From: a virus
Lineage: Duplodnaviria; Heunggongvirae; Uroviricota; Caudoviricetes
IMG/VR virus record: IMGVR_UViG_2609459792_000007
Length of the DNA stretch: 64,000 nucleotides
Reading direction: 5' to 3' (one strand)
The translations under genes were made by a program, and so were the position numbers. The notes under the pieces were generated by a model that worked only from the letters and a program-made list of their open reading frames with translations, did no database searches and had not been told where the DNA came from. Positions 723 through 62,123 of the stretch are shown piece after piece. Position 1 is the stretch's first letter, and every line of letters begins with the position of its first letter.

Positions 723-3700
723 TTGGACATGGAACAGTTCAAGAAGAAAAAATTACCGCTTCTTATTGCCGGTGCTGGTGGCAAGAAAAGTAAAAGCTCC
801 AGCCGTACCCCGGTTGAAGCTGATGATACTGTCAATTCTCGTGCTATGGCAGCCATCCTCGACCTTCTTGGCGAGGGGGTTATCGGTGGCCTGGTAAATG
901 GCGCAAAGTCGATCTTCATCGACGATTTACCGATCTTGAATGAAGATGGCTCTTCCAACTTCAGCGGTATTACATGGGATTTTCGTGACGGCTCACAAGA
1001 CCAGACGCCAATGGCTGGTTTTGATTTTGTTGAAACGCCTAAGTCCGTAAATATTCAGCTTAAAAAAACACACGACGTTACGGTTTCAATCGATAACGAT
1101 GAAGCTGATCGCGTTCGTGTCATCATGAAATTCCCCTCTTTACGTAGCGTTGATAAAAGCTCTGGCGATACAAATGGCACTACGGTGAAGTACAAATTCC
1201 AGATCGCCAACGGAGACGCAACATTTTCTGATGTAGTGGCAGAAGGTGAGAAAAGCGTTGATATCACGCTAACGGCAAAGAAAACAGGCGTGTATTACCG
1301 TAGCTATGAGCTGAAACTACCTAAGCCTGGTCGTGCATACAAGGTTAGGGTGATTCGTCTTACAGATGATAACAGTAGCCAGTACCTCTACAACGACACA
1401 TGGGTTGATTCCATAGGTGAGATTGTCGACACGCCAATGAACTACCCTAACTCTGCTCTTGTTGGCTTGAAGGTCAATTCAGAGCAGTTTGGTAGCACAA
1501 TGCCTTCCCGTTCGTATTTGGTGCGCGGTATCAAAATCCGAGTACCGTCAAACTACAACGAATACACCAATACTTATGTCGGCGTATGGGACGGTACTTT
1601 TAAGCTGTTGTCTTCTTCAAACCCTGCGTGGATTCTCTACGATTTGCTTACCAATACTCGGTATGGTCTTGGGCAATTTGTGTCGGAATCCATGATTGAC
1701 CTCGGCCAGCTCTACCAGATTGGTCGATATTGTGACGAAGAGGTCGATGATGGCTTTGGGGGTAAAGAGAAACGCTTTGCAATCAATACGCAGATCACCA
1801 GTCGACAAGACGCATACCGATTAATTCAGGATATTGCCGGTGCATTCCGCGGCATGGTGTTTTGGGCTGGTGGCATGGTTAACATCATGCAGGATAGCCC
1901 ATCAGATCCGGTAATGATGTTTACCAACTCCAACGTCAAAGATGGACTGTTTACCTATAAAGGTTCTGCGCGTAAAGATCGCCCATCCGTTGCGCTCGTA
2001 ACCTACAACAACAAGGAGGACGGTTATAAGCAAAATATCGAGTACGTTGAAGATCAGGACGCAATGCGCCGTTATGGTGAGCGTAAAACAGAAGTCGTAG
2101 CATTTGGATGTACAAGCCGAGGCCAGGCTCACCGAGTTGGTTTGTGGCTTTTGTATACCGCCAGAATGGAGTCGGATGTAATTACATTTACTGCCGGCTT
2201 AGACGCCTCATTTCTGATGCCCGGTGAAACCGTTCTGATTCAGAACAAATATCGTGCAGGTAAACGTAACTCCGGTCGAATTGTGGAGTTTACCAAAAAC
2301 AGCATCACTCTCGATGCGCCTGTGTCGTTAGCTAAAAGCGGCAGCTTTATTCGGATATTGAATCAGGAAGGCAAAATCGTTGAACGTGATGTTCTTGAAA
2401 CTGGCGAAAACATAACAAAGGTTACGTTTTCAAAAGCTCTGTCGTCAGCGGAAACGCCTGTTTTGAACGGTGTCTGGACAATTACAGAACCAGATCTCGA
2501 ACCTATGCGCGTTCGCATCGTTAACATCGCGCAGGGGGAAACGCCGGGTAGCTTTGACATCACCGCTGTTGAGAACAATCCGTCTAAATATGAGGCAATC
2601 GACAATGGTGCAACGCTTATCCCGCAGAATACGACGGTATTGGACCCGACTTACTCTAAGCCATCTAATTTGCAAATCACTGAAGGGACTTATCTCTCAA
2701 GCCCGGGCAACCTGTCAGTAAAACTGACTGCAACATGGGAAGGAAAATCTCCAGAGTATTGGATCAGTTGGCGACGTTCTGATGAAAACAATGTATCGAA
2801 CTGGCAATCGGCGCGTGTAACCGAAGAGCAATACGAAATCGTTAATGTCGCGGAGAATGGACGCTACGACTTCCAACTGTATGCGGTTTCATTCAACGGT
2901 AAAAAAACAGAGATTATCAGTACCGTTTATCAGGTGTTGGGCACAATGACACCGCCGGATGCCCCAACGTCATTAACGGCCGTTGGAGACTATCGTAATG
3001 TGATACTGAATTGGGTTAATCCAGATTCGGTAGACCTTGATCACATTAATGTTTACGCATCCCAGACCAACAATCTGGATACGGCGAAACTGATCGCAGA
3101 GTCTGCAAGCACCACCTTTACACATGCTGGTCTTGGGGATAGCGAAACGTGGTATTACTGGGTTCGAGCATCGAACAAGCGAGGTATGTTAAGCCCTCCG
3201 AACTCAAACTTGGGTACAGAGGCGACAACTCGCGATGTACTGTCGTTCCTGGCTGGCAAAATTACATCTTCCGAGCTTGGTCAGGCTCTGCTTGAGGACA
3301 TCAACAGTAAAGCCTCTCAAGAAGCAGTTGACGAGTTAAATGAGCATATCAACCAGAGCGTCGAATCTTTGGAGGGGTCGGTAAACGACGTTAAGGAAGA
3401 TATAGCTGAATTAGATAAGCAGTTCAGCGATAACCTCGCGGGTTTTGAAATAAAATTCAACGAGCGTAGCGATGCTTTGGAGAACGCACAAACCGAGCTT
3501 AAAGGTGAGGTTTCGGCAACGATCGACAAGGTCAATGAAGCGTTTGAAAAAATTGATGCTACTGATGCTGCAATTGTTGAAATCGAAAACACCGTATCTG
3601 AACACGATAAAGCTCTCGCTAATACAGTCGAGGCAATAAAGGCTGCAAGAGACGAAGCGGCGGCTCTTATTGCTAAGGAAAGCGAGGCTCGTGTAGAAGG

Positions 3701-5453
3701 TGATGCCGCAAACGCTAAACAACTGGAAGTGTTGCAGTCGACGGTAGAGGAAAGTTCCGCAGCTGTTGAAGAAATGAAAAAGACGGTTGCAGAGGTCGAT
3801 CGTGCCAGTGCAGAACTGACTACGAACATTGAGGCGTTAGCCAAAACAAATATTGACCTGGCTCTTCGTCAAGATGAAGACCAGCACAAGCAGATGGTCA
3901 ATAACGCGAAGATCGCAACAACACAGAAAACCTTTGCTGATGATATGTCTGCAATGGCCACGAAGGTTGAGGAAATTCGCGTAGAAATTGGCGAAGACAT
4001 TAAGGCCAGTATTCTGGAAGAGTCCACCGCTCGTGCCGATGGCGATGAAGCGTTGGCAAAGCGTGTCACTCAGCTGCAATCTAAGTTTGAAGGAGATATC
4101 AGCGCGGCGATTAGTACAGAACAGGAGGCTCGTACATCTGCCGATGAAGCTTTGACGAAACAAATAACTCAGCTTGAGTCGAAAGTAAGCAACGATATTG
4201 TCGCAGCCATTAAGGAAGAGCAAGAAGCCCGAGCAACGGAAGATTCGGCTCTGGCAAGCCAGATCACCCAACTTCAGGCAAAAGTTGATGATGATATTTC
4301 TGCTGCAATACGCAGTGAGCAGGAGGCGCGTGCGAGCGGAGACTCTGCGTTAGCTAAACAAATAAACCAGCTTCAAGCAAAGGTTGACGGTGATATATCC
4401 GCCGCCATCACTCAGGAGCAGGAGGCCAGAGCAAGTGCTGACGAGGCGCTCTCACGAGAAATTAACAGCCTGCGGGCGCAGACCGGAACTGACATTGCCG
4501 CAGCCGTTGCTGTAGAGACAAAGGCAAGGACTGACGCCGATAGTGCATTGTCCAGCCAGATTACATCTCTTACAGCAAAAGCTAATGATCTCGAGGCGTC
4601 TCTTGCCAAAGAAACAACGGCTCGTGCAGATGGCGATACCGCTTTAACAAAAGAGGTTTCAAGTTTAAAAGCACAGACTGCGAAAGATATTAGTGCGGCC
4701 GTTGCAGTGGAAACGCAGGCTCGAACTGATGCTGACTCGGCGCTATCGTCTCAGATCACCAAGCTGACCTCTCAATACAAAGAGGATATTAAAGCGGCTG
4801 TAGCAACCGAAACGAAAACGCGTACAGAGCAAGATGCGGCACTGGCGACTCAAATCACAAACTTAGAGTCTCAAACAGCAGCCAACATTTCTGCGGCGGT
4901 CACAACTGAAACGACAGCGAGAACGCAGGCAGATAATGCACTAAGTGGGCGAATCGATACTCTGAAAGCAGAGGTGGATGGAAATACCGCGACAATTCAA
5001 CAGCAGGCAACAGCCATTGCTGATACCAACAAAAAAGTCTCAACCGCGTGGACGTTGAAAATGGAGACTTCAACGAGCGGAGGGCAGAAGTATGTTGCCG
5101 GTATTGCGCTTGGTATCGACACCACCGGTCTTTCTCAGTTTTTGGTGCAGGCGGACAGATTTGGTTTGGTCAACTCTGTTAACGGGAAGATCACCACGCC
5201 ATTTGTTATCGAAAACAGTATCGCCTATATGAATGGTGCGTATATCAAGGATGGCACAATCACCAATGCAAAAGTAGGCGATCTGCAATCTACCAATTTT
5301 GTTAGCGGTAGATCTGGATGGCGGTTCGGCAAAAATGGAACGCTTGAGATCAACGGTAATAGCGGCGGCAATGGGCGACTGGTCATAAATGGTCAGCGGA
5401 TTGACGTTTATGACGATAACAACGTCCTACGAGTAAGAATTGGCCTTCTGTGA
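723..5453 (+). CDS. host specificity protein J-like central tail fibre
   Basis: 1576 aa; N-terminal third carries lambda gpJ-like motifs (NPAWILYDLLTNTRYGLG, FRGMVFWAGGMV); central Ala/Glu-rich tandem repeat stalk; follows I-like gene. Confidence 0.85.
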   Translation: MDMEQFKKKKLPLLIAGAGGKKSKSSSRTPVEADDTVNSRAMAAILDLLGEGVIGGLVNGAKSIFIDDLPILNEDGSSNFSGITWDFRDGSQDQTPMAGFDFVETPKSVNIQLKKTHDVTVSIDNDEADRVRVIMKFPSLRSVDKSSGDTNGTTVKYKFQIANGDATFSDVVAEGEKSVDITLTAKKTGVYYRSYELKLPKPGRAYKVRVIRLTDDNSSQYLYNDTWVDSIGEIVDTPMNYPNSALVGLKVNSEQFGSTMPSRSYLVRGIKIRVPSNYNEYTNTYVGVWDGTFKLLSSSNPAWILYDLLTNTRYGLGQFVSESMIDLGQLYQIGRYCDEEVDDGFGGKEKRFAINTQITSRQDAYRLIQDIAGAFRGMVFWAGGMVNIMQDSPSDPVMMFTNSNVKDGLFTYKGSARKDRPSVALVTYNNKEDGYKQNIEYVEDQDAMRRYGERKTEVVAFGCTSRGQAHRVGLWLLYTARMESDVITFTAGLDASFLMPGETVLIQNKYRAGKRNSGRIVEFTKNSITLDAPVSLAKSGSFIRILNQEGKIVERDVLETGENITKVTFSKALSSAETPVLNGVWTITEPDLEPMRVRIVNIAQGETPGSFDITAVENNPSKYEAIDNGATLIPQNTTVLDPTYSKPSNLQITEGTYLSSPGNLSVKLTATWEGKSPEYWISWRRSDENNVSNWQSARVTEEQYEIVNVAENGRYDFQLYAVSFNGKKTEIISTVYQVLGTMTPPDAPTSLTAVGDYRNVILNWVNPDSVDLDHINVYASQTNNLDTAKLIAESASTTFTHAGLGDSETWYYWVRASNKRGMLSPPNSNLGTEATTRDVLSFLAGKITSSELGQALLEDINSKASQEAVDELNEHINQSVESLEGSVNDVKEDIAELDKQFSDNLAGFEIKFNERSDALENAQTELKGEVSATIDKVNEAFEKIDATDAAIVEIENTVSEHDKALANTVEAIKAARDEAAALIAKESEARVEGDAANAKQLEVLQSTVEESSAAVEEMKKTVAEVDRASAELTTNIEALAKTNIDLALRQDEDQHKQMVNNAKIATTQKTFADDMSAMATKVEEIRVEIGEDIKASILEESTARADGDEALAKRVTQLQSKFEGDISAAISTEQEARTSADEALTKQITQLESKVSNDIVAAIKEEQEARATEDSALASQITQLQAKVDDDISAAIRSEQEARASGDSALAKQINQLQAKVDGDISAAITQEQEARASADEALSREINSLRAQTGTDIAAAVAVETKARTDADSALSSQITSLTAKANDLEASLAKETTARADGDTALTKEVSSLKAQTAKDISAAVAVETQARTDADSALSSQITKLTSQYKEDIKAAVATETKTRTEQDAALATQITNLESQTAANISAAVTTETTARTQADNALSGRIDTLKAEVDGNTATIQQQATAIADTNKKVSTAWTLKMETSTSGGQKYVAGIALGIDTTGLSQFLVQADRFGLVNSVNGKITTPFVIENSIAYMNGAYIKDGTITNAKVGDLQSTNFVSGRSGWRFGKNGTLEINGNSGGNGRLVINGQRIDVYDDNNVLRVRIGLL
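4000..4990 (+). repeat. tandem coding repeats of about 93 bp (about 31 aa) inside the J-like gene
   Basis: About 12-14 consecutive units of the form DISAAI..EQEAR..AD.AL..QIT.L.AKV in the translation; predicted coiled coil. Boundaries approximate. Confidence 0.7.
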
Positions 5454-5546
5454 TGGTAGAAAAAAATATTTATATCGGTAAAAATAAGTAGGTACTTACT
5501 TAATGGTGGGCAAGGATAGCCCACCAAATCAAGGAGCATATTCAAC

Positions 5547-8500
5547 ATGTGGTACAGGGAAGGTACTATCACATTTACACAGGGTAGTAATACTCTGGTT
5601 GGGGTTGGGACAGCCTGGAACGTAACAGCTAATGGTGTGTTGCCGGGGATGATCGTCATTGGCCCCGACAATAAGCTGTATGAGATCAAGCGCGTAACAA
5701 GCGATACGAACATTGTTCTCTCAGAACCTTATACCGGTGAAACTCAGTCTGAAGTTCCGTGCCGAATCATTACTACCTATGAAGGCGACTTAACACAGTT
5801 TAGCGCGCGCTTTACCGCGCTAATGTCGCGTATGTCGGCTGATTCCAAGTCCATGCGTAGTTGGTTGACTGCTCTGGATGAGGTGACAATCGAGCGTGAA
5901 GACGGTACAGAAGTGACCGTTAAGCCGCTGATGCAGATCGTCAACGAGCACAACGAAAACGTTGAGTGGTATAAAAATAACACTGACGCGATTGATGCCG
6001 CTGGTGACAAAGCTCGTGAGGCGGCGGCCAGTGCTGCCGCAGCAGCAGAAAGCGCCAATACCGCTGGAGAAAAAGCATCTCAAGCGTCTCAAAGTGCATC
6101 CGCTGCGGCATCCTCACAAAGTGCCGCAAGTGCGAGTGCAACTGCTGCGAAAAAATCTGAAACGAACGCAGAATCAGCATATCTATCGGCAGCAGAATCA
6201 GCGTCTGTAGCGTCGACCAAAGCATCGGAGGCAGCAACATCTGCGTCCAGTGCCTCTGCATCTAAGGATGCAGCCAAAGCATCAGAGACTAACGCTTCAT
6301 CGAGTGCAAACGCGGCTGCATCATTTGCAACAGAAGCTGAAAATTCGTCTAAGGCAGCAAAAGCGTCAGAGACAAACGCAAAAGCATCTGAAACGGCAGC
6401 CGGGCAGAGTGCATCGTCTGCAAACAGTTCGAAATCTGCGGCAGAAGCGTCAGCAAGCGCAGCCTCAGCAAGTGCGGATAGTGCTTCATCAAGTGCAACT
6501 GCGGCAGGAAAATCTGCGGAAAGCGCGTCGTCATCAGCGACAACAGCTACCGCAAAAGCGACTGAGGCGACGAATCAGGCTACAGCTGCTAAAAATTCAG
6601 CATCGGCAGCAAAATCCTCTGAAACAAATGCAAAGGCTTCTGAAGATAATGCCGCTTCCTCTAAAGAGGCAGCTGCTGAATCTGCAAGTTCTGCGTCTGC
6701 ATCAGCCACCTCGGCATCTGCTTCAAAAGATGAGGCGACCAAGCAGGCATCAGCTGCGAAGGGGAGTGCTTCAACGGCATCCACGAAAGCAACAGAGGCG
6801 GCAGGTAGTGCGACGGCTGCATCTCAGAGCAAAGCTGCTGCTGAATCCGCTGCGACCCGTGCAGAAGCTGCCGCTGATCGTGCTGAAGAGATCGCCGGTG
6901 CAGTTGCGATGGAAGACGCAAGCCTTACCACCAAAGGTGTTGTGAAACTTAGCAGTGCTGTCGATAGCACCAGTGAATCGCTGGCCGCAACGCCAAAGGC
7001 AGTTAAAGCAGTCAATGACAATGCGAACAGCAGGGTGCCATCTAACCGAAAAATTAACGGGAAAGCACTGACTGCGGATATCACATTAACGCCGAAAGAT
7101 ATTGGTACTTTAAATTCAATAACGATGTCTTTCTCTGGCGGGGCCGGGTGGTTCAAACTGGCTACTGTTACAATGCCACAAGCGAGTTCCATCGTTTACA
7201 TCGCATTGATTGGTGGCGCTGGTTACAACGTCGGCTCCCCACATCAGGCAGGCATTTCAGAACTGGTTCTACGAGCAGGCAATGGAAACCCCAAAGGGAT
7301 TACAGGTGCTTTGTGGAAGCGTACAGCTGTCGGATTAACGAATTTCGCCTGGATCAACACATCCGGCGATACATATGATATTTACGTTGAAATTGGCAAT
7401 TATGCGACGAGTGTAAATATCCATTGGGATTGTACTGCAAATGCGTCAGTTTCTATTTATACATCGCCAACATATTCAGCGAGTAAGCCTTCCAGCGTTA
7501 CCGATGGTGTTGTTTATACGTTGTATAGCACACATCAGAAACCGACGCCGTTAGATATTGGAGCACTGCCAACAACCGGAGGAACAGTTTCAGGTCCGTT
7601 GTCTGTTACTGGTGGGATCACCGGAACATTAAATGGTAATGCAAGTACAGCAACGAAATTGCAGACGGCAAGATCTATCGGTGGAGTTGTTTTCGACGGT
7701 TCTGCAAATATTAACCTTCCAGGTGTAAACACTACGGGTAATCAGAACACCACTGGTAATGCTGCAACTGCTACAAAACTTCAGACGGCACGCACAATTG
7801 GCGGGGTAGCATTTGATGGCAGTGTCAATATCGACCTGCCGGGCGTGAATAAAGCAGGCAATCAGAGCACTACCGGCAATGCTGCAACCGCTACAAAACT
7901 ACAGACAGCGCGTACAATCAACGGTGTTAAGTTTGATGGTTCTGCGGACATAACGCTGACTCCTGCGAACCTTGACGTATACAGCAAAAGCGAAATAGAC
8001 AATAAAAAAGGGATGAGAAAATACACTTTTTCAGCGCCTGCAAATGCAGTAAGCGGTAAGTGGTATCCTATAGTCTTTCGCCGATCTGGAGGCAGTACCG
8101 ATGAATTAGCCTCACGAGTTGTGATAACTACTTATTCCTCAGCTGGCGGATACGCCATGAATAATTGTGAATTTAATGGGTTTGTTATGCCTGGCGGTTG
8201 GTCTGATCGCGGTTCATATGCGGCTGGTTTTTTCTCAATATATTCTACTGCTGAGCGAGCTATACACTCGATTATTTCAAGTGTGAAAGATGACGATTTG
8301 TGTAGTGTATTTTACGTTGAAGCCAGAGCATTCCCTATCAAGATATTTGCTGAGGAGGGCTTGAACGTAATTGTTCCAACGGCTGATTATGCAGTTGGTC
8401 AAACCACTTATAAGTGGGGGGCAACTGATCCTTTATCAGAAAGTACGAATGCACAGATAATTTTGGACTTTAAAAATGGACGAGGTTATTACTGTTCACA

Positions 8501-9704
8501 TCCATTTATTTCAAGTCTTTCAGGAAATGCTGCTACAGCAACGAAATTGCAGACTGCAAGAACTATCGGCGGCGTGGCCTTCGATGGATCTGCGAACATA
8601 AATTTGCCTGGTGTAAACACGGCAGGTAATCAGAATACAACGGGCAACGCGGCTACTGCTACGAAGTTGCAAACAGCGAGAAACATCAATGGTGTTAAGT
8701 TTGATGGCTCAGGCGATATCAACATTAATACATTGGTATCTCGTGGCCGAGTTACGGCGTTAAGCGGCTCTACTCAAGGCACTGCTGGCATTCAAATGTA
8801 CGAGGCGTACAACAATAGTTATCCGACCACGTATGGCAACGTATTGCACATGAAAGGTGCGAGTGCTGCTGGTGAGGGCGAGTTGCTTATTGGCTGGAGT
8901 GGTACGAGCGGTGCACATGCGCCGGTTTTCATTCGCTCCCGAAGAGATACCACTGATGCGGCATGGTCAGCGTGGGCGCAGGTATATACCGCTAAGGATT
9001 CAATCCCTGGTGTGAATACAACCGGTAATCAGAACACTACTGGTAATGCCGCAACCGCCACAAAATTGCAGACAGCAAGGAAAATTGCTGGTGTGGCGTT
9101 TGATGGCTCTGCCGATATTACTTTGACTGCGGCTAACCTTAATGCTTACACGAAAACAGAGGTAACAAACCTTCTAAGTTCCTATGCAAGCAGATCATCA
9201 CTGACAGGCTATAGTGGCAACCTGGATATTATTGCTGAAACACTGGTTGTCAAATCAGGCGGTAGTGGAGGGTTTGCTATATGGGATATTGGCACAACTA
9301 CTAGCGGTGCCAATATGTACATTGATCCAAACCCAGGTATCAATACAGTTTGGCGTTCAACATCTTCAAGGCGCTATAAAAAGGATATTGAAACATTACA
9401 AGATCGATATGCTGATGAACTTTTGTCATTAAGACCTGTTTGGTATCGTTCAATTTGTCGAGGTGACCGAAAGGATTGGGGGTATTACGGCCTTATTGCT
9501 GAAGAGGTTGGTGAGATTGCCCCGCAATATGTCCATTGGCGTGAACCAACAAATAATGATTCTCCAGAAGATATTTCCTCCAATGGTATGGTCGCTGAAG
9601 GAGTGATGTATGAACGTTTGGTTGTACCACTCATTCATCATATTCAGCAATTGACCAAAAGGGTTGAGGAGCTTGAAAAGAAGTTAAATTCACCTAAAGA
9701 ATAA
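5547..9704 (+). CDS. side tail fibre protein (Stf-like N-terminus, repeat shaft, C-terminal intramolecular chaperone-like domain)
   Basis: 1385 aa; Ala/Ser-rich region ending ..GSASTASTKATEAAGSA..SQSKAAAESAA..KGVVKLSSAVDSTSESLAATPKAVKAV resembles lambda Stf N-terminus as recalled; five or more copies of NAATATKLQTAR..GV.FDGS..I.LPGVNT.GNQNTTG; C-terminal about 130 aa resemble the self-cleaving chaperone domains of tailspikes and L-shaped fibres. Confidence 0.8.
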   Translation: MWYREGTITFTQGSNTLVGVGTAWNVTANGVLPGMIVIGPDNKLYEIKRVTSDTNIVLSEPYTGETQSEVPCRIITTYEGDLTQFSARFTALMSRMSADSKSMRSWLTALDEVTIEREDGTEVTVKPLMQIVNEHNENVEWYKNNTDAIDAAGDKAREAAASAAAAAESANTAGEKASQASQSASAAASSQSAASASATAAKKSETNAESAYLSAAESASVASTKASEAATSASSASASKDAAKASETNASSSANAAASFATEAENSSKAAKASETNAKASETAAGQSASSANSSKSAAEASASAASASADSASSSATAAGKSAESASSSATTATAKATEATNQATAAKNSASAAKSSETNAKASEDNAASSKEAAAESASSASASATSASASKDEATKQASAAKGSASTASTKATEAAGSATAASQSKAAAESAATRAEAAADRAEEIAGAVAMEDASLTTKGVVKLSSAVDSTSESLAATPKAVKAVNDNANSRVPSNRKINGKALTADITLTPKDIGTLNSITMSFSGGAGWFKLATVTMPQASSIVYIALIGGAGYNVGSPHQAGISELVLRAGNGNPKGITGALWKRTAVGLTNFAWINTSGDTYDIYVEIGNYATSVNIHWDCTANASVSIYTSPTYSASKPSSVTDGVVYTLYSTHQKPTPLDIGALPTTGGTVSGPLSVTGGITGTLNGNASTATKLQTARSIGGVVFDGSANINLPGVNTTGNQNTTGNAATATKLQTARTIGGVAFDGSVNIDLPGVNKAGNQSTTGNAATATKLQTARTINGVKFDGSADITLTPANLDVYSKSEIDNKKGMRKYTFSAPANAVSGKWYPIVFRRSGGSTDELASRVVITTYSSAGGYAMNNCEFNGFVMPGGWSDRGSYAAGFFSIYSTAERAIHSIISSVKDDDLCSVFYVEARAFPIKIFAEEGLNVIVPTADYAVGQTTYKWGATDPLSESTNAQIILDFKNGRGYYCSHPFISSLSGNAATATKLQTARTIGGVAFDGSANINLPGVNTAGNQNTTGNAATATKLQTARNINGVKFDGSGDININTLVSRGRVTALSGSTQGTAGIQMYEAYNNSYPTTYGNVLHMKGASAAGEGELLIGWSGTSGAHAPVFIRSRRDTTDAAWSAWAQVYTAKDSIPGVNTTGNQNTTGNAATATKLQTARKIAGVAFDGSADITLTAANLNAYTKTEVTNLLSSYASRSSLTGYSGNLDIIAETLVVKSGGSGGFAIWDIGTTTSGANMYIDPNPGINTVWRSTSSRRYKKDIETLQDRYADELLSLRPVWYRSICRGDRKDWGYYGLIAEEVGEIAPQYVHWREPTNNDSPEDISSNGMVAEGVMYERLVVPLIHHIQQLTKRVEELEKKLNSPKE

Positions 9705-12383: not shown

Positions 12384-12560
12384 CAGAAGAGGAGTTTTCT
12401 AACATAAAATTTGCATATTATTAGAGCACAAGGTAGATTTGGCACATGGATGTCAAGTAAATCATCCCTTGCATTAATGCTGCGACGCATACTCGTAGCC
12501 TCTAAACCCTGACAAGGGTCGCCGCTATGACATTAAGTTAATACCGGCTAAGGTGGACAC

Positions 12561-12944
12561 ATGCTGAACGAAAAACGTTCTATACAAACAATTCGCGATT
12601 GCACGAGTGTTATCGCAACTCATGTGCTGAATAAGCGCAAACTTGAGGTGCGTAAACTTAACAACGATGCGACTGCGCCAAAAGACACTCGCTTCATCGT
12701 AACTTTCAAAGACGATGTTGAGAATGCTGGTGCCAGTGTAAAACCGTTGGCTGAAGCGATTTTCCTGAACGATCGTGTTCGTTTCATTGTGAAGCCAGCA
12801 AAACAATACCCTGAATTAGCACGGTTTAGTGACCAATTCTCTGAAATTATTGAGAGTGCAATTCGCCGCTTTCTTAATACTCATGGTAGCATTGTCAGCA
12901 ATACAACTGCTGATGGTACTGCTCTAAGATGGCACCTACACTAG
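12561..12944 (+). CDS. hypothetical protein
   Basis: 127-aa ORF; no motif recognised. Confidence 0.45.
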   Translation: MLNEKRSIQTIRDCTSVIATHVLNKRKLEVRKLNNDATAPKDTRFIVTFKDDVENAGASVKPLAEAIFLNDRVRFIVKPAKQYPELARFSDQFSEIIESAIRRFLNTHGSIVSNTTADGTALRWHLH

Positions 12945-13681
12945 AACGCACATACTCTAAAAATCTTTATGAGTTTCCTCACCGTGGGGAAACTCGCGTT
13001 TCACGTTTTGGCTACCTCATCAACGAAGCATCGCTTTTCAAAATATCTGAAATAACCATTATCGAGCCTGATGATGATATCTGTCTGTATATCCTGATGG
13101 AGAAAGTTGGAGCACGAGATCAGGGTGAACTGATGGACTTCATTCTGGACAGAGGCGAAGATGGAATGTCTGATTCGGACATTATTCAAGCAATTCTGCG
13201 TTCCGACATGCTCGATCAGAGCAGAAACACGATAGCAGGCAGAATTGCATTGCGTGAATACACATTCATCGAGGATGGGGTAGAGATTGACTGCTATCAG
13301 ATTGCAGGTGTTGAAACAGAAAGAGCAATAAGGCAAAGGGGACTGTGCAACCTCACGTATCGCTTCCTCCTTCATTGGTACGAACATCTTGTCTGTGATT
13401 ACAATCAGACCATTCCTGGCGCAAAAATCTGGGCCGGTCCATTAATGCGAACAGGTGATGTAAGAATTTACAACGCAAAAACTGAGACGTTCGAGGATGT
13501 GTTAGGCGAATATGGGATGGGAAAAGAAACCGGCTTTTTGCCGTGGAACAGAGGATTGTTACTTGATCCAGAATTAAGCTCTTGGTTTCCAAATAAGGTG
13601 CAAGTTAACGTTGAGAAATTTATCGTACTTATCATCTCCCGCAAAACAAGAACCCCAGTTGGTTTATATCTAAAAGATTAA
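12929..13681 (+). CDS. hypothetical protein
   Basis: 250-aa ORF; no motif recognised. Confidence 0.5.
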   Translation: MAPTLERTYSKNLYEFPHRGETRVSRFGYLINEASLFKISEITIIEPDDDICLYILMEKVGARDQGELMDFILDRGEDGMSDSDIIQAILRSDMLDQSRNTIAGRIALREYTFIEDGVEIDCYQIAGVETERAIRQRGLCNLTYRFLLHWYEHLVCDYNQTIPGAKIWAGPLMRTGDVRIYNAKTETFEDVLGEYGMGKETGFLPWNRGLLLDPELSSWFPNKVQVNVEKFIVLIISRKTRTPVGLYLKD

Positions 13682-13686
13682 CAATT

Positions 13687-13710
13687 AGGCGACTTCTGTC
13701 GCCTTTTTTG
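13687..13710 (+). terminator. rho-independent terminator
   Basis: AGGCGAC-TTCT-GTCGCCT followed by TTTTTTG. Confidence 0.75.
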
Positions 13711-13857
13711 TTAACAGCCATTGATTCTCGCCTAAAAATTCTAAGGCAGCACCTACCATTTAACCTTTACACAGCAGCCGTAGGCATTTAGGCTATATCA
13801 CATATAAGAAAACAAGTTGTTTCAGACAATAATAATAGACGCAAAGGGAACTCTCCA

Positions 13858-14526
13858 ATGACCAAGATCTTTGTGGTTGGCGGCACAAAGGGCGGGCCTG
13901 GCAAATCCACCGTTGCCCAGCAAATTGCCGTTTGCCTGAAAGTCAAAAAGAAGAAGAAGGTTTATATCACTGATATAGATATTCAGCGCACGACAACAAG
14001 CTGGTGTGAAGACCGTCGACAGAACGAAGACCTTGAGCTGATTCCTTTTGCATACGTTCAGGATGACATCATTAAGCACCTAAAATCGCTTCAGGGTAGA
14101 GCTGAGTTTGTAGTGGTAGATGCTGGTGGCTTTGACTCCGAAATTCAGCGACAAGCGATGCTGATGGCCGACGTTATCATTATCCCGCTTCGTCCTAAGC
14201 GTCGTGATTTGAAATCTCTGCGTGACATCGATCCTATTATCGACAATGTTCGTAATGTAAACGATAAAGTGAAGGTCCGCGCGGTCATGAACCAGTGCCC
14301 GGCTTTGCCATCACAAGTGTCTCGCATTCTGGCGGCTAAAGAGATTGTCGAGACGTTTGGCATCGAGTCTGCGCCAGTCAATCTATATAACCGCAACGTC
14401 TACGATGATGCGGAAGAGTCAGGTCGTTCTATCTTTGAAATGACCGGTAGCGAGCGCGACAAAAAGGCGGAAGCCGAGTTTGAAGAATTTGTAGATTATC
14501 TGTTGAGTCTGGAGGAAGAAGAATAA
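13858..14526 (+). CDS. parA: ParA-family partition ATPase (small, type Ib-like)
   Basis: 222 aa; deviant Walker A VVGGTKGGPGKST at the N-terminus, no N-terminal HTH extension; followed by a small basic protein gene. Confidence 0.8.
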   Translation: MTKIFVVGGTKGGPGKSTVAQQIAVCLKVKKKKKVYITDIDIQRTTTSWCEDRRQNEDLELIPFAYVQDDIIKHLKSLQGRAEFVVVDAGGFDSEIQRQAMLMADVIIIPLRPKRRDLKSLRDIDPIIDNVRNVNDKVKVRAVMNQCPALPSQVSRILAAKEIVETFGIESAPVNLYNRNVYDDAEESGRSIFEMTGSERDKKAEAEFEEFVDYLLSLEEEE

Positions 14527-14885
14527 TGTCCATGAAAATGGGTGACCTAGCAAAGCGCAAAGAGCCTGATGCACCGGCTAAGAACACAACTCCTTTGCGC
14601 CAACCAGTCAGACCACAAGGACGCCCGACTCGTGGCAAAGAGAAAATTAAAAGCCGCACTATGTCACTGGAAGACGAATACTTCGAGCTTCTGGAAATGA
14701 TGAAGTTTATCCCTCGTTTCGAGAAGTTCACCCGCTCTGATGTGATTCGTGCTGCTATTTTCCATCTGGCAGAGAAGTCACCGCAGGAAATCGAGGACAT
14801 CGTGAAACTTAACGAGGCGATCACCGCTGCCGATGTCACGATGCGTACCGATGAAATCAAACGAGAGTTGATGAAGAAAGGTTAA
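14526..14885 (+). CDS. small ParB/ParG-like centromere-binding protein (putative)
   Basis: 119 aa; basic N-terminal tail and a ribbon-helix-helix-like segment; start overlaps parA stop (ATGA-type coupling). Confidence 0.5.
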   Translation: MSMKMGDLAKRKEPDAPAKNTTPLRQPVRPQGRPTRGKEKIKSRTMSLEDEYFELLEMMKFIPRFEKFTRSDVIRAAIFHLAEKSPQEIEDIVKLNEAITAADVTMRTDEIKRELMKKG

Positions 14886-14890
14886 AAATC

Positions 14891-14921
14891 ATGCATTGGC
14901 GCGTACATTGCGCCAATGCAT
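14891..14921 (-). terminator. terminator hairpin for the minus-strand GIY-YIG gene
   Basis: 12-bp stem (ATGCATTGGCGC / GCGCCAATGCAT) with 7-nt loop; the A-run upstream on + gives a U-tract for the minus-strand transcript. Confidence 0.5.
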
Positions 14922-14937
14922 AACTACAGTGTCAGCT

Positions 14938-15705
14938 TTATGCCGCGCTAACACTATGTTCAGTCCTAACCACCCCAACCTTCACAAAAGGGCTACCGTA
15001 GCTTGGTGGCTTCTTGATTAATTTGCCTACATACAGTTTTCTAATATGCTCATCGGCTATTCTGCCAACAAATTCATATCGTTTTGTGTCGGGGCCAAGA
15101 GCTATATCCCTTGTAAAGTACTGCTGAGAACCGGCTTTGACCCAGCATTCAATCTGATAAACTTCCATTATTAGCCCACCATATGTAGCGTAGGCATATT
15201 TGAGATTCTCGTCTCTTGGAACCTTTGCCCATACGCCACGCGTAGCTTCATATAATGCCAGAGCGGACATTCCTGATTTGTAGGTGCTGTTTAGCAGGAA
15301 GGCAAGACCGGCGTGCTCAGGAGCAATTTCAGTTTCCTCTTGCAGCACTAAGTGATGGTAGGCGTCCAGTGATATTCTGCCCATCATGGAACCACTTCCT
15401 CGAACCTTATTCGTAAGCTCTCCGACCCCCATAAGGTCGATGCATGTCGCCTCAACAAGTTTGGCTGTGGTTTCATCCATACCATGACGAAGAATATCTA
15501 TGCCTAATTTTTTATTAGCCAAAAGTTCTTTGATCCGCATGGATTTGGGAGAGTCATCGGGATACTTGATGTGATCGAGACAACGAGTCGATTTGCCTTT
15601 TCCTATGTAAAACGGTCTTTTCATCTTGTCTTCTGTATCATAGAGACAGTAAACATAGTATTTAGCCTTATCCAAGGATCTCGCGTATACCGATAAATCG
15701 TCCAT
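14938..15705 (-). CDS. GIY-YIG domain endonuclease with uncharacterised C-terminal domain
   Basis: 255 aa; N-terminus YYVYCLYD..PFYIGKGKSTRCLDH fits the GIY-YIG motif; one of only three minus-strand genes in the window. Confidence 0.7.
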   Translation of the reverse strand: MDDLSVYARSLDKAKYYVYCLYDTEDKMKRPFYIGKGKSTRCLDHIKYPDDSPKSMRIKELLANKKLGIDILRHGMDETTAKLVEATCIDLMGVGELTNKVRGSGSMMGRISLDAYHHLVLQEETEIAPEHAGLAFLLNSTYKSGMSALALYEATRGVWAKVPRDENLKYAYATYGGLIMEVYQIECWVKAGSQQYFTRDIALGPDTKRYEFVGRIADEHIRKLYVGKLIKKPPSYGSPFVKVGVVRTEHSVSAA

Positions 15706-15816
15706 TATTGCATCTCTTAGCTACTGACTAATGCGTTCTATTTTACACATAAGTTTTTAATCAATTTAACAGGCTCAAAGTGTAGAGCTTCTGGGCGTCT
15801 AAGACGACAAGTTATG

Positions 15817-15871
15817 CCTGCTTCTGTATATATAAATAATAAGTAACTTATTAAATATATACGGAAGCAGG
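15817..15871. repeat. long AT-looped hairpin element, copy A
   Basis: CCTGCTTCTGTATATAT..ATATATACGGAAGCAGG, 17-bp arms with one G-T pair; near-identical copy at 62065-62123; followed by T-rich tract. Confidence 0.7.
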
Positions 15872-15978
15872 TCTTTTAAAAGACACCACCAGAACAACTC
15901 CCTTCCGTTTCCACTTCCAAAAACTGCCACCAGTCGCTATCATCCGCTCATTGTGATAAGTAAGTAACTACCTACCAG

Positions 15979-16728
15979 GTGAGCCACATGAGCCAAATCT
16001 TTTTCGATACCATCGACAACGACCAGTACGACTTCATGACAGAGTGGAATACCGCTGTTATGGACAAGTGGGTCGCTGAAAACATTGGTTTGTCGCGCTG
16101 TAAAGACGAGGCTGAACTCTTCGAGACGAAGTGGTTTGATTACCGCGACATGCATCCTCTCATGGCCACCTGTCTTTTTACGGAGGCATACAAACGTCAG
16201 TACTCAAATATCATGCTGACGCACGGTCGCGAACACTTTGAAACAGCTCCGTTCACCACCGGGTTAAAACGCCTGCCTTATCAGGAGTTGTCGACTGCCA
16301 ATAAAACGTCGCTATGGAAAGCACGCCAGTTTGCGGATCGCTATTGCTGCTCATACGACTATTTTATCTCCACCGTTCTTTCCGCAGCTGCACGACGGCT
16401 GTGGGACAAGCTGCCGCGCCCACAGCATTTATGGCAGCCAGAGCTGGTTGAGATATTCGAAGAGAAATTAGCCAGACGCGCAACAACCCGTCTGGATGAC
16501 TCTCTGGTTAGTTTTAAGCATATGGGAGACATGCAGTTCAACCCGATTCAGGAAAGCTATTTTGAGTGGATTCTGGAGCGTTTACGCGCCATCCCCCGCA
16601 GCAAGCGCATACGCGCAATTTTCTCCGCTATCTGGCTAATGGAAATCGTTCCAGAGCGCCTTATTTCCGCCCACTTTCCAGAAGAACTGGAAGAAGCACG
16701 GCGGTTTATTGATCCCCTATCTAATTAA
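15979..16728 (+). CDS. hypothetical protein (first gene of the replication block)
   Basis: 249-aa ORF; no motif recognised. Confidence 0.5.
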   Translation: MSHMSQIFFDTIDNDQYDFMTEWNTAVMDKWVAENIGLSRCKDEAELFETKWFDYRDMHPLMATCLFTEAYKRQYSNIMLTHGREHFETAPFTTGLKRLPYQELSTANKTSLWKARQFADRYCCSYDYFISTVLSAAARRLWDKLPRPQHLWQPELVEIFEEKLARRATTRLDDSLVSFKHMGDMQFNPIQESYFEWILERLRAIPRSKRIRAIFSAIWLMEIVPERLISAHFPEELEEARRFIDPLSN

Positions 16729-16771
16729 CTAATACTAGAAAACAATTTGTTTAAAAAACAAAGGAAAGCAC

Positions 16772-39669: not shown

Positions 39670-39720
39670 CTCGTTATTATCACATACAAGAAAACAATTT
39701 GTTAAAAGGTAAAGTTAATT

Positions 39721-44126: not shown

Positions 44127-44133
44127 TAGCACC

Positions 44134-44616
44134 AACCACTGCGGTGAGTAGTCTACTCACCGCATTCGTATCCAGCTCATTATCCACTGTAGTCAGTAAC
44201 AAAACCTTCCTACATATCTGCTAACCACTGTAGCGAGTAGACAGCCTTTCATTCGCATCAAACAACCACTATGGTGAGTATTGGAGTGAGATGTCCAGCG
44301 GGTATCCACTATGGTGAGTAAGCCTTTGCTGTTTTCAGTGGATATCCACTCGCCACAGTGGATACGCTCAAAGATGAGGGCGACAACAACCACTATAGAC
44401 AGTAAATTTTCCAAGATACCCAGTGACCACTAACCTCGCAGCCCTTGTTTCATCAGTGTTAGTGATCACTAACATTTAATTCAGTATTTGCATTCTACTG
44501 CCTACAGTGGTTATCAACAGATAACGATACTCACTATAGTGGATAGCGAATTACAGATATAAGTAAGGCTCACTACAGTGGATAGTGAGTCTTACTACTA
44601 ACTACAGTGGTTGGGC
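44134..44616. repeat. iteron array downstream of repA (incA-like)
   Basis: About 10 copies of a 9-bp core CCACTRTAG in both orientations, e.g. AACCACTGCGGTGAGTA, ATCCACTGTAGTCAGTA, CACTATAGTGGATAG, AACTACAGTGGTTGG. Confidence 0.8.
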
Positions 44617-45671: not shown

Positions 45672-45715
45672 TCCAAATGTCTCTTGTTATTCGACGGCTT
45701 TGGTGGCCTTTGCTG

Positions 45716-54246: not shown

Positions 54247-54352
54247 CATATGGTGGGGGATATCCCCACCTTCTCTTTGATTTGTAAGCCTTGTTTAAAC
54301 ATATAAGATAACAACTTGTTTAAACGCACCAAAAAAGAAAAAGGAAAAACAC

Positions 54353-62064: not shown

Positions 62065-62123
62065 AGCCTGCTTCTGTATATATAAATAACTACATATTAA
62101 TTATTAATATACGGAAGCAGGCT
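62065..62123. repeat. long AT-looped hairpin element, copy B
   Basis: AGCCTGCTTCTGTATATAT..ATATACGGAAGCAGGCT; shares flanking TTCTGGCGTCT with copy A at 15817-15871; followed by GTTTTGT. Confidence 0.7.

What the first reader, a model, noticed from the sequence alone, without database searches (positions are those of the whole stretch)
14886..15978. GIY-YIG endonuclease cassette on the opposite strand between the partition locus and a conserved hairpin
Almost every gene in the window is on the + strand, but a 255-aa GIY-YIG protein with its own terminator (14891-14921) is encoded on the minus strand between parB and a long hairpin element (15817-15871) that recurs at 62065-62123. This looks like a free-standing homing-endonuclease-type insertion. 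The C-terminal 130 aa are unassigned and could be a DNA-binding or specificity domain.
Basis: partly seen in the sequence, partly recalled or inferred. Interest (0 to 1): 0.6.

Follow-up and report, generated by a model that had tools for sequence, protein, structure and literature searches.

The report
Anti-phage restriction nuclease cassette, not homing
The opposite-strand GIY-YIG gene is real, but it is a relative of the known PD-T4-3/CMoRE anti-phage enzyme that cuts DNA carrying modified cytosines, sitting in a swap-in/swap-out defence-gene slot of an SSU5-like phage-plasmid, not a homing endonuclease.

Summary
A 255-aa ORF lies on the minus strand at 14938-15705, one of only 3 minus-strand ORFs among 48 long ones. 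It has its own terminator hairpin (14891-14921). It sits between the parB-like gene and a long hairpin (15816-15871) that recurs at 62066-62121.

The window is an E. coli SSU5-like phage-plasmid. Homology with relatives stops at the parB stop codon and resumes at the hairpin. The 921-bp segment between them is one allele of a polymorphic slot.

- At least 9 alleles were seen, including an (almost) empty one.
- Other alleles carry PD-T7-5, DUF2971 (PDC-S31) and a KAP NTPase (PDC-S49).
- About 35% of E. coli relatives carry this cassette. It is 98-99% identical even where flanking genes are only 80-91% identical.

Over both domains the protein is homologous to PD-T4-3/CMoRE. That is a type IV restriction enzyme, characterised by experiment, that degrades 5hmC/glucosyl-5hmC DNA of T-even phages. 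The "unassigned" C-terminal half is CMoRE's modification-sensing domain.

The homing-endonuclease reading is not supported.

One difference was found. The window protein belongs to a form with a short alpha2-alpha3 loop. It lacks CMoRE's acidic autoinhibitory lid.

It is a new, uncharacterised member of a known kind. Interest is modest.

The parts
14526..14885 (+). parB-like small ORF (119 aa) after ParA. Its stop codon (14883-14885) is the left boundary of the variable slot.
   Evidence: phrog_5111. Homology to relatives ends at 14883. The junctions of 10 alleles are shown.
14886..15806 (-). 921-bp exchangeable cassette: terminator, CMoRE-like gene and its upstream region.
   Evidence: It is absent or replaced in relatives. 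It is 97.8-99.3% identical in backbones whose parA is about 84% and dnaB about 80% identical. 135 PLSDB plasmids carry it at 97.7% identity or more.
14887..14925 (-). Intrinsic terminator of the cassette gene. The perfect palindrome is 14891-14921. The U-run is the complement of A14884-A14888 and overlaps the parB stop codon.
   Evidence: Fold of the minus strand: 16 pairs, -25.1 kcal/mol, z -6.45, then UUUUU. Sequence.
14938..15705 (-). CDS of 255 aa: a PD-T4-3/CMoRE-family GIY-YIG modification-dependent restriction endonuclease (predicted).
   Evidence: PADLOC PD-T4-3, E 1.3e-23, aa 11-231. PDB 9u7u/9u75, E 2e-15, aa 12-230. hhalign probability 99.3%. The top four Foldseek matches are 9u75, 9u7z and 9u7u.
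15394..15672 (-). [quoted passage not shown]
   Evidence: 106 of 109 aligned sequences, 107 of them database relatives, carry YYYREN. The next-best structural matches are the UvrC GIY-YIG domain.
14974..15372 (-). C-terminal domain (aa 112-244), homologous to the 5hmC/5ghmC-sensing domain of CMoRE.
   Evidence: The domain model (pLDDT 85.8) matches 9u75/9u7u/9u7z with TM 0.60-0.62, rmsd 4.3-4.4 A, E 1e-6. The next hits have E above 0.1.
15706..15806 (-). Upstream region of the cassette gene. It holds an AAGAG Shine-Dalgarno-like sequence before the ATG and presumably the gene's own promoter.
   Evidence: It belongs to the conserved cassette (98-100% identical across backbones). The scan found no consensus sigma-70 promoter, so the promoter is inferred.
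15816..15871 (+). Conserved long AT-rich hairpin followed by TCTTTT. It is the right boundary of the slot and the probable + strand terminator of the parAB(-cargo) unit.
   Evidence: It is present at the same place in all 14 related loci examined. Stem variation is limited to C/U changes that keep G-U pairs on the + strand.
62066..62121 (+). Second copy of the hairpin (82% identical), directly after the + strand ORF 61450-62043 and followed by CTGTTTTG.

Best explanation
The window is an E. coli SSU5-like phage-plasmid. The 921-bp segment 14886-15806 is a self-contained, single-gene anti-phage defence cassette with its own upstream region and its own terminator, read against the flow of the phage genes.

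[quoted passage not shown] By analogy with the characterised enzymes:

- the C-terminal domain recognises hypermodified bases (5-hydroxymethyl- and glucosyl-hydroxymethyl-cytosine of T-even phages);
- the N-terminal GIY-YIG domain (Y17/Y19/Y33/R41/E85/N99) then cuts the invading DNA;
- the unmodified host chromosome and the phage-plasmid itself are spared.

The phage-plasmid thereby protects its host, and so itself, from lytic competitors.

The cassette occupies a fixed hotspot between the parB stop codon and a conserved terminator hairpin. Unrelated defence cargos replace one another there by recombination in the conserved flanks.

Shown here: the homology over both domains, the catalytic residues, the polymorphic slot and the horizontal spread of the cassette. 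Inferred: the substrate (hmC-type DNA), expression in the lysogen and the recombination mechanism.
For: Family assignment:
- PADLOC PD-T4-3 model, E 1.3e-23, nearly full length.
- phmmer to the CMoRE crystal chains 9u7u/9u75, E 2e-15, aa 12-230.
- Profile comparison: probability 99.3%, E 1.5e-20, 33% identity over 208 columns.
- The full model (pLDDT 83.6) has the four CMoRE entries as its only matches with E < 1e-3.
- The C-terminal domain model alone gives TM 0.62 to them.
- The GIYxY-YIG tyrosines, Arg, Glu and Asn are invariant.
- It is the only CMoRE-like gene in the window.

Function of the family:
- CMoRE degrades 5hmC/5ghmC DNA, not C or 5mC DNA, and protects against T2/T4/T6 by about 5 logs without abortive infection (PMC12923530).
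- A homologue 48% identical to PD-T4-3 behaves likewise (PMC12366544).
- PD-T4-3 is active in its native host (10.1101/2024.12.20.629700).

Hotspot:
- The same slot holds PD-T7-5 (E 1.4e-139), DUF2971/PDC-S31 and KAP NTPase/PDC-S49. It also holds three cargos with no family match (a two-gene one and two single genes) and an almost empty allele.
- 92 of 263 E. coli plasmids that have the flanks carry this cassette.

Spread:
- The cassette is 98-99% identical where parA is 84% and dnaB 80% identical.

Independent report:
- DefenseFinder calls PD-T4-3 and PD-T7-5 on SSU5-group phage-plasmids (10.1101/2025.09.12.675607).
Against: - No experiment exists on this protein or its close relatives. Identity to the characterised enzymes is only 27-33%.
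- The acidic 15-residue autoinhibitory lid of CMoRE (four consecutive D/E) is absent. The H45-I58 segment is 12 aa against 20 and holds only D50 and D51. Regulation and perhaps specificity may therefore differ.
- The global TM-score of the full model to the crystal structures is low (0.36), because the two domains are placed differently.
- No consensus promoter was found for the gene.
- The hmC contact in CMoRE is a main-chain oxygen (Y127), which aligns to a Leu here. Sequence cannot confirm the specificity.
Confidence: 0.72

Rival explanations
1. Free-standing GIY-YIG homing endonuclease. The enzyme cuts cassette-less phage-plasmids near the parB-hairpin junction, and repair copies the cassette in.
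For: - There is a presence/absence polymorphism with an almost empty allele.
- The cassette is far more conserved than the backbone. A low-divergence tract extends about 130 nt into parB and about 110 nt past the hairpin, as co-conversion would give.
- The catalytic residues are intact.
- Distant full-length homologues in jumbo phages are annotated 'homing nuclease'.
Against: - Both domains are homologous to CMoRE. CMoRE shows no detectable cleavage of unmodified DNA and no strict sequence requirement beyond two modified cytosines.
- No NUMOD, zinc-finger or HTH DNA-binding modules were found.
- The site holds at least 8 other cargos without nucleases.
- Cargo is decoupled from the backbone for a non-nuclease cassette too. 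KAP NTPase cassettes only 83.6% identical sit in backbones with 97.5% identical flanks.
- The 'empty' allele keeps 19 nt of the 3' end of the SSU5 DUF2971 cassette. It looks like a deletion product, not a virgin target.
- Homologues are solitary chromosomal genes in bacteria.
Confidence: 0.05
2. Same family and same defence role, but a different substrate range from CMoRE. The target could be another hypermodified base, such as Mom-modified adenine, arabinosyl-hmC or 5hmU. Alternatively the enzyme discriminates less tightly because the acidic lid is missing.
For: - Identity to the characterised enzymes is only about 30%.
- The lid loop is short and weakly acidic in this protein. The same holds for 66 of 109 aligned sequences (107 of them near relatives).
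- Removing the four acidic residues of CMoRE gives activity on unmodified DNA and toxicity.
- PD-T4-3Capno also degrades Mu DNA.
Against: - The C-terminal domain is the best-conserved part of the alignment with CMoRE and has the same fold.
- The gene is stably carried by about 35% of E. coli SSU5-like plasmids, so it is not overtly toxic.
- In the metagenomic selections, PD-T4-3 homologues were almost always associated with defence dependent on T4 modification.
Confidence: 0.15
3. A nuclease that serves the phage-plasmid's own biology, as the Pfam name LEM-3-like might suggest. Possible roles are resolution of replication or partition intermediates, or degradation of host DNA during lytic growth.
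For: - The only Pfam hit is LEM-3_GIY-YIG.
- The gene lies between the partition and replication modules.
Against: - About 65% of close relatives lack the gene and carry unrelated cargo or nothing at the site, so it is dispensable for maintenance and lysis.
- The Pfam hit covers only the catalytic core (aa 32-104, 30 bits).
- The gene is transcribed against both neighbouring modules and has its own terminator.
Confidence: 0.03

Closest known systems
PD-T4-3 / CMoRE (Cytosine Modification Restriction Endonuclease; PDB 9U7U, 9U7Z, 9U75, 9U8D; Vassallo et al. 2022 for PD-T4-3, recalled from memory; Liu et al. 2026, PMC12923530)
   Same: - It is a single gene of about 255 aa.
- It has an N-terminal GIY-YIG domain with the GIYxY-YIG motif and catalytic Arg/Glu.
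- It has a homologous C-terminal modification-sensing domain.
- It is carried on mobile DNA of E. coli.
   Different: - Identity is only 27-33%.
- The alpha2-alpha3 'lid' segment is 8 residues shorter and lacks the four consecutive acidic residues shown to be autoinhibitory.
- There is a 2-residue longer beta1-beta2 loop.
- Activity, oligomeric state and substrate are untested.
Defence hotspots of temperate phages and satellites (P2/P4-type hotspots; recalled from Rousset et al. 2022; see also PMC13586616, seen only in the listing)
   Same: - The position is fixed between conserved core genes.
- Many mutually exclusive cargos occur there, several of them recognised defence systems.
- Cargo and backbone phylogenies are decoupled.
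   Different: - The host element is an SSU5-like phage-plasmid.
- The slot is bounded by the parB stop codon and a conserved terminator hairpin.
- I found no description of this particular hotspot in the searchable literature.
Free-standing GIY-YIG homing endonucleases of T-even phages (SegA-G, I-TevI family; from general knowledge)
   Same: - It has a GIY-YIG catalytic core.
- It is intergenic and lies on a cassette with a presence/absence polymorphism between conserved genes.
   Different: - There is no NUMOD/HTH DNA-binding tail. The C-terminal domain is the CMoRE sensor.
- The site is shared with many non-nuclease cargos.
PvuRts1I/AbaSI family of 5hmC/5ghmC-dependent restriction enzymes (PMC4027163, PMC4081097; listed, not read)
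   Same: The predicted logic is the same: a nuclease domain plus a separate modified-cytosine reader, with cleavage at a fixed distance between two modified cytosines.
   Different: The folds are unrelated. From general knowledge, those enzymes use a PD-(D/E)XK-type nuclease and an SRA-like reader. No similarity was found here.

Membership tests
PD-T4-3 / CMoRE type IV restriction endonuclease | Match to the family's profile HMM over most of the protein | tested here: met
   PADLOC PDLC04031 PD-T4-3: E 1.3e-23, 81.9 bits, aa 11-231 on profile positions 11-238 of 256.
PD-T4-3 / CMoRE type IV restriction endonuclease | Single-component, two-domain architecture: N-terminal GIY-YIG domain, linker, C-terminal sensing domain, about 250 aa | tested here: met
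   The protein is 255 aa. Alignment to 9u7u/9u75 spans aa 12-230. hhalign gives 99.3% probability over 208 columns. The AF2 model has two domains with a low-confidence linker at aa 96-104. The cassette holds only this gene.
PD-T4-3 / CMoRE type IV restriction endonuclease | GIYxY-YIG motif (a third tyrosine) plus catalytic Arg and Glu | tested here: met
   Y17-V-Y19 ... Y33-I-G, R41, E85 and N99 align with CMoRE Y17/Y19/Y31, Arg and Glu. They are invariant in 39 homologues and present in 106 of 109 aligned sequences.
PD-T4-3 / CMoRE type IV restriction endonuclease | C-terminal modification-sensing domain of the CMoRE fold | tested here: met
   The model of aa 112-255 (pLDDT 85.8) matches 9u75/9u7u/9u7z with TM 0.60-0.62, rmsd 4.3-4.4 A, E 8e-7 to 2e-6. 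No other PDB match has E below 0.1.
PD-T4-3 / CMoRE type IV restriction endonuclease | Inserted, negatively charged alpha2-alpha3 lid loop with four consecutive acidic residues. The paper says 'most' members have it. | tested here: not met
   The segment H45-I58 is 12 aa (IKYPDDSPKSMR; 2 acidic residues, longest run 2). In 9u7u it is 20 aa (…VDDDELL…; 5 acidic residues, longest run 4). The 12-aa form is modal among the nearest relatives (66 of 109).
PD-T4-3 / CMoRE type IV restriction endonuclease | Cleaves 5hmC/5ghmC DNA but not C/5mC DNA, and protects against T-even phages | not testable with these tools
   This needs plaque assays and in-vitro digests. It is known only for the E. coli ECOR68, APEC O1, O157:H7 and NILS69 proteins, the K. 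pneumoniae protein and the Capnocytophaga protein.
PD-T4-3 / CMoRE type IV restriction endonuclease | Tetramer (dimer of dimers) required for function | not tested
   No multimer prediction was run.
Free-standing GIY-YIG homing endonuclease (Seg/I-TevI type) | GIY-YIG catalytic domain with intact active site | tested here: met
Free-standing GIY-YIG homing endonuclease (Seg/I-TevI type) | C-terminal sequence-tolerant DNA-binding modules (NUMOD, zinc finger, HTH) | tested here: not met
   No Pfam family other than LEM-3_GIY-YIG scores at E <= 0.1. The C-terminal half is the CMoRE sensor fold.
Free-standing GIY-YIG homing endonuclease (Seg/I-TevI type) | Gene present or absent between conserved genes, with an intact cognate empty site in relatives | tested here: inconclusive
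   Two of 60 sampled E. coli plasmids have parB, then 30 nt, then the hairpin. Those 30 nt include a remnant of another cassette. All other cassette-less relatives sampled with both flanks carry different cargo.
Free-standing GIY-YIG homing endonuclease (Seg/I-TevI type) | Cleaves the cassette-less allele, and its spread depends on the nuclease | not testable with these tools
   The co-conversion-like tract is equally expected from ordinary homologous recombination.
Defence hotspot of a temperate mobile element | Fixed location between conserved core genes with many mutually exclusive cargos, including recognised defence systems | tested here: met
   Boundaries are identical in 10 alleles. Cargos are PD-T4-3-like (this window), PD-T7-5 with DUF2971, DUF2971/PDC-S31, KAP NTPase/PDC-S49, three cargos with no family match and an almost empty allele.

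The most novel reading that the evidence does not exclude
The window protein represents a widespread 'short-loop' clade of CMoRE-like enzymes that lacks the acidic safety-catch. Such enzymes would have to avoid self-DNA by another means, or recognise a different or broader set of modified bases.

The clade travels as a terminator-to-promoter cassette within a defence hotspot of SSU5-like phage-plasmids that I could not find described. The conserved long hairpin, also present at 62066, would serve both as a terminator and as the recombination anchor for cassette exchange.
Probability: 0.2. Interest if true: 0.5.

Novelty: new member of a known kind. Interest (0 to 1): 0.3.

Why it matters
- It corrects a plausible mis-reading. 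A GIY-YIG gene on the opposite strand between conserved phage genes looks like a homing endonuclease. Several phage records annotate homologues that way.
- It assigns the "unassigned" C-terminal half to a structurally defined modified-cytosine sensor.
- It shows that about a third of E. coli SSU5-like phage-plasmids arm their hosts with a probable anti-T-even restriction enzyme. This is relevant to phage therapy and to competition between phages.
- It pins down the exact boundaries of a defence-gene slot (parB stop codon to terminator hairpin) that could be mined for new systems. Three of the cargos seen there have no family assignment.
- The lack of the acidic lid in this clade offers a natural test of the autoinhibition model proposed for CMoRE.

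Tried and rejected
- The consensus promoter/terminator scan of 14400-16100 found nothing. The terminator was confirmed by folding instead. The promoter remains unlocated.
- NCBIfam gave no hit for this protein or for 7 other slot cargos.
- Base composition shows no foreign signature. The cassette is about 45% GC against 44-49% in the flanks.
- I looked for target-site duplications or a shared motif at cassette ends across 10 alleles and found none.
- I considered integron attC-like sites because every cassette starts with its own stem-loop. The stem-loops share no core sequence, so I rejected this.
- Hairpin covariation: there are only one-sided C/U changes and no compensatory pairs in the outer stem. 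RNA-level function is suggested, not shown.
- I tried to test cassette mobility with the DUF2971 cargo of SSU5 against the E. coli alleles. The cargos are too divergent to align, so this was uninformative.
- I looked for the genomic location of the experimentally tested NILS69 PD-T4-3, to see whether it is this gene. The paper does not state it.
- Literature searches for a described SSU5 hotspot found none.
- The weak YTH-domain matches of the C-terminal domain (E 0.1-2, probability <= 0.16) were not taken as evidence.
Full report
**Observation**

The ORF 14938..15705 on the minus strand encodes 255 aa. Of 48 non-overlapping ORFs of at least 120 aa in the window, 45 are on the + strand. This ORF is one of three on the minus strand.

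Pfam gives only LEM-3_GIY-YIG (30.1 bits, aa 32-104). PHROGs gives a full-length match to phrog_5356, of unknown function.

The palindrome 14891-14921 follows the parB-like stop codon (14883-14885). As minus-strand RNA it folds into a 16-pair stem (-25.1 kcal/mol, z -6.5) followed by UUUUU. That is a standard intrinsic terminator for the minus-strand gene. The consensus scanner missed it.

The long AT-rich hairpin 15816-15871 (-30.2 kcal/mol, z -7.9) recurs at 62066-62121 (82% identical, -30.4 kcal/mol). Each copy comes right after a + strand ORF and is followed by a T-run.

**What the window is**

Megablast places the region in SSU5-like phage-plasmids of E. coli. Escherichia phages PhiR41_1, CMS-2020a and Cyrano match at 97-98%, and Salmonella phage SSU5 at 84%. 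The flanks are found in 368 PLSDB plasmids and on 263 plasmids of complete E. coli genomes, never on a chromosome.

**The slot**

Homology with relatives that lack the gene stops at 14883 (the parB stop codon) and resumes at 15807-15817 (the foot of the hairpin).

I used a query made of the two flanks joined together. A spread sample of 60 of the 263 E. coli records, together with the phage records fetched earlier, shows these alleles:

- this cassette;
- a KAP-family P-loop NTPase (564 aa);
- DUF2971 alone;
- DUF2971 plus a 390-aa protein;
- three + strand genes including DUF2971 (SSU5 itself);
- a 250-aa plus 140-aa pair;
- a 352-aa minus-strand gene;
- a 225-aa minus-strand gene;
- an almost empty allele in two records.

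PADLOC profiles assign several of the cargos:

| Cargo | PADLOC assignment | E-value |
|---|---|---|
| 390-aa protein | PD-T7-5 | 1.4e-139 |
| DUF2971 proteins | candidate family PDC-S31 | 3e-41 |
| KAP NTPase | candidate family PDC-S49 | 4e-22 |

In the almost empty allele, parB is followed by 30 nt and then the hairpin. Nineteen of those 30 nt (TCTGGCAGCTTCAATCAGA) match the 3' end of the SSU5 DUF2971 cassette. The 'empty' allele therefore looks like a deletion derivative.

All junctions fall at the same two points. All but one of the eight distinct cassettes (SSU5's own) begin with their own, different GC-rich stem-loop right after the parB stop codon.

This cassette is present in 92 of 263 (35%) E. 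coli records. It is in 135 PLSDB plasmids at 97.7% identity or more.

**Spread**

I compared the window with plasmids of a divergent lineage (pYY76-1-1 and the BHD6 plasmid).

| Segment | Identity to the window |
|---|---|
| parA | 84-85% |
| parB | 90-91% |
| Gene after the hairpin | 84-87% |
| dnaB-like gene | 80% |
| The 921-bp cassette | 97.8-98.6% |

Mismatch density falls from 11-20 per 100 nt to 0-3 per 100 nt between about 14760 and 15920. The low-divergence tract therefore reaches about 130 nt into parB and about 110 nt past the start of the hairpin. Plasmid A of strain D9 is a mosaic that switches lineage about 280 nt downstream of the hairpin (near 16150).

The cassette has thus moved between lineages by recombination in the conserved flanks.

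This is not peculiar to the nuclease. KAP NTPase cassettes only 83.6% identical to each other sit in backbones whose flanks are 97.5% identical to the window's.

A fragment made of a parA tail, parB, the cassette and the hairpin is also found between IS elements on a 141-kb plasmid.

**The protein**

The evidence for homology to PD-T4-3/CMoRE is as follows.

- PADLOC's PD-T4-3 model matches aa 11-231 (E 1.3e-23).
- Against all PDB sequences, the only matches are the four entries of PD-T4-3/CMoRE (9u7u/9u7z and 9u75/9u8d), with E 2e-15 over aa 12-230, that is, both domains.
- A profile of 39 homologues aligns to the 9u7u sequence with 99.3% probability (E 1.5e-20, 33% identity, 208 columns).
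- An AlphaFold2 model (pLDDT 83.6) has those four structures as its only Foldseek matches below E 1e-3.
- The next matches are the UvrC GIY-YIG domain. The CMoRE authors reported the same nearest neighbour for their nuclease domain.
- The global TM-score is low (0.36) because the two domains are oriented differently. I therefore modelled aa 112-255 alone (pLDDT 85.8).
- That domain model matches the CMoRE C-terminal domain with TM 0.60-0.62 and rmsd 4.3-4.4 A. Nothing else scores below E 0.1.

The 'unassigned C-terminal 130 aa' is therefore the CMoRE modification-sensing domain.

**What the family does** (from papers, not tested here)

- PD-T4-3 was found in E. coli ECOR68 as a single-gene defence against T2/T4/T6.
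- It binds and degrades DNA with 5hmC or glucosyl-5hmC, but not C or 5mC.
- It cuts at CN11/N9G between two modified cytosines.
- It is a tetramer, and it binds 5hm-dCTP on the C-terminal domain (PMC12923530).
- A Capnocytophaga homologue (48% identical to PD-T4-3) behaves likewise and also degrades Mu DNA (PMC12366544).
- PD-T4-3 is active in its native host NILS69.
- DefenseFinder calls PD-T4-3 and PD-T7-5 on SSU5-group phage-plasmids of E. coli and Shigella (10.1101/2025.09.12.675607).
- The window holds only one CMoRE-like gene, so those calls very probably refer to this gene.

**Same and different**

The defining GIYxY-YIG motif (Y17, Y19, Y33) and the catalytic Arg (R41) and Glu (E85), plus N99, are present. 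They are invariant in the alignment.

The acidic lid is not present. The segment between H45 and I58 is 12 aa (IKYPDDSPKSMR) against 20 aa in 9u7u (with DDDE).

The exhaustive search found 1781 cluster representatives at E <= 1e-3, of which 632 have E <= 1e-10. I aligned 107 full-length proteins from the best 150 together with the window protein and the 9u7u sequence, 109 sequences in all.

- 106 of the 109 carry the six key residues.
- 66 of the 109 have the 12-aa loop.
- Only CMoRE itself has a run of four acidic residues.

That sample is biased toward relatives of the query.

The window protein is thus a member of the family by homology, architecture and active site. It belongs to a clade lacking a feature that the CMoRE paper showed to be autoinhibitory. 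How this clade avoids self-DNA, and whether its substrate range is the same, is open.

**Homing endonuclease?**

For:
- polymorphic presence;
- an almost empty allele;
- a co-conversion-like tract.

Against:
- the two-domain homology to an enzyme that shows no detectable cleavage of unmodified DNA;
- the absence of homing-type DNA-binding modules;
- the many non-nuclease cargos at the same site;
- turnover of a non-nuclease cargo decoupled from the backbone;
- solitary chromosomal homologues between housekeeping genes in Providencia and Shewanella.

I put this reading at about 5%.

**The hairpin**

The hairpin is present at the same position in all 14 related loci. Variation in the outer stem is limited to C/U changes that keep G-U pairs on the + strand (C-G 6: U-G 6; U-G 10: U-A 2). 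There are no compensatory changes in the outer stem.

Three facts fit a + strand intrinsic terminator closing the parAB(-cargo) unit. There is a downstream T-run. Each copy lies after a + strand ORF. A repeated GATAAGTAAGTA motif precedes the next operon.

Because it is the conserved right edge of every allele, it is also the natural homology anchor for cassette exchange. Both roles are inferred.

**Verdict**

The feature is real and the cassette nature was correctly spotted. The function is re-assigned from homing endonuclease to a PD-T4-3/CMoRE-type modification-dependent restriction enzyme, in a defence hotspot of an SSU5-like phage-plasmid. It is a new (uncharacterised, lid-less) member of a known kind, of modest interest.

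Noticed in passing
window about 12400-13750 (ORFs 12561-12944 and 12929-13681): There is a second variable slot just upstream of parA. Homology with relatives begins only at 13751. Cyrano, pYY76-1-1 and others carry a GNAT (KacT-like) toxin and a DUF1778 antitoxin on the minus strand there. The window carries two + strand ORFs (phrog_3307, function unknown, for the second) with no PADLOC hit.
   Followed up: partly
L019 (NZ_CP151549.1) 2679-4637; L007 1387-3081; L008 1387-2554; L009 1396-2454; L010 1374-2051: Other cargos occupy the same parB-hairpin slot: DUF2971 plus PD-T7-5, a KAP NTPase, and three cargos with no Pfam, NCBIfam or confident PADLOC assignment (250 aa + 140 aa; 352 aa; 225 aa). 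The last three are candidate new defence genes by guilt of location.
   Followed up: partly
left edge of the slot in L002, L003/L007, L008, L009, L010 and window 14887-14925: In all but one of the eight distinct cassettes (SSU5's own), whatever its cargo or strand, the cassette begins right after the parB stop codon with its own, different GC-rich stem-loop. No shared core sequence was seen.
   Followed up: partly
window 5484, 10861, 15954, 19390, 20267, 22913, 29430, 35017, 38539, 47182, 61419, 62452: A motif around GATAAGTAAGTA(C) recurs at least 10 times in both orientations, often just upstream of + strand genes (repeat families D4, D12, D14, D16, I6-I8, I20). One copy (15954-15975) lies between the hairpin and the next ORF. 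It may be a phage promoter or operator.
   Followed up: no
window 13794-13825, 16724-16755, 39676-39707, 54293-54324: A 32-nt repeat contains the palindrome AAACAANTTGTTT (family D5). Copies lie just upstream of parA (start 13858) and of the dnaB-like gene (start 16772). It is a candidate regulator-binding site.
   Followed up: no
window 44131-46219: There are arrays of 21-nt-spaced repeats (CTATAGTGG core; families D3, D6, D7, I10, I11, I17). They lie on both sides of the minus-strand ORF 44616-45671 (351 aa). This looks like an iteron-type plasmid replication origin with its Rep gene.
   Followed up: no
window 7635-9118: Diverged direct repeats of 113-201 nt (67-79% identical) occur with 120-nt spacing (families D1, D2). 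They probably reflect a repeated domain within a structural gene.
   Followed up: no
phage records MK994515.1 (Serratia phage Moabite) 6406-7170, MN642089.1, JN627160.1 and others: Homologues matching most of the protein (24-36% identical, 39-88% coverage) occur in jumbo lytic phages of Serratia, Pectobacterium, Klebsiella, Pseudomonas and Pantoea. They are annotated 'G-I-Y Y-I-G endonuclease' or 'putative homing nuclease'. Given the two-domain match, they may instead be CMoRE-like weapons against competitors with modified DNA.
   Followed up: partly
protein aa 112-244 (window 14974-15372): After the CMoRE structures, the next Foldseek matches of the C-terminal domain are almost all YTH (m6A-reader) domains. 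They are far below significance (E 0.1-2, probability <= 0.16, TM 0.2-0.3). This is a possible, unproven, distant PUA-like relationship. The CMoRE authors reported no structural homologue.
   Followed up: no
L014 (NZ_CP062831.1) 4001-5615: A fragment of the phage-plasmid (parA tail, parB, the cassette, the hairpin and the start of the next gene) is embedded between IS3/IS30-family elements on a 141-kb plasmid that also carries cofR. PLSDB lists 25 mobilizable or conjugative plasmids with the cassette.
   Followed up: partly
L001 (PhiR41_1) 3570-3625 compared with window 15816-15871: In PhiR41_1 the two arms of the hairpin carry the window's wobble position in the opposite arrangement (C-A instead of U-G on the + strand). 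It is as if the palindrome had been flipped.
   Followed up: no
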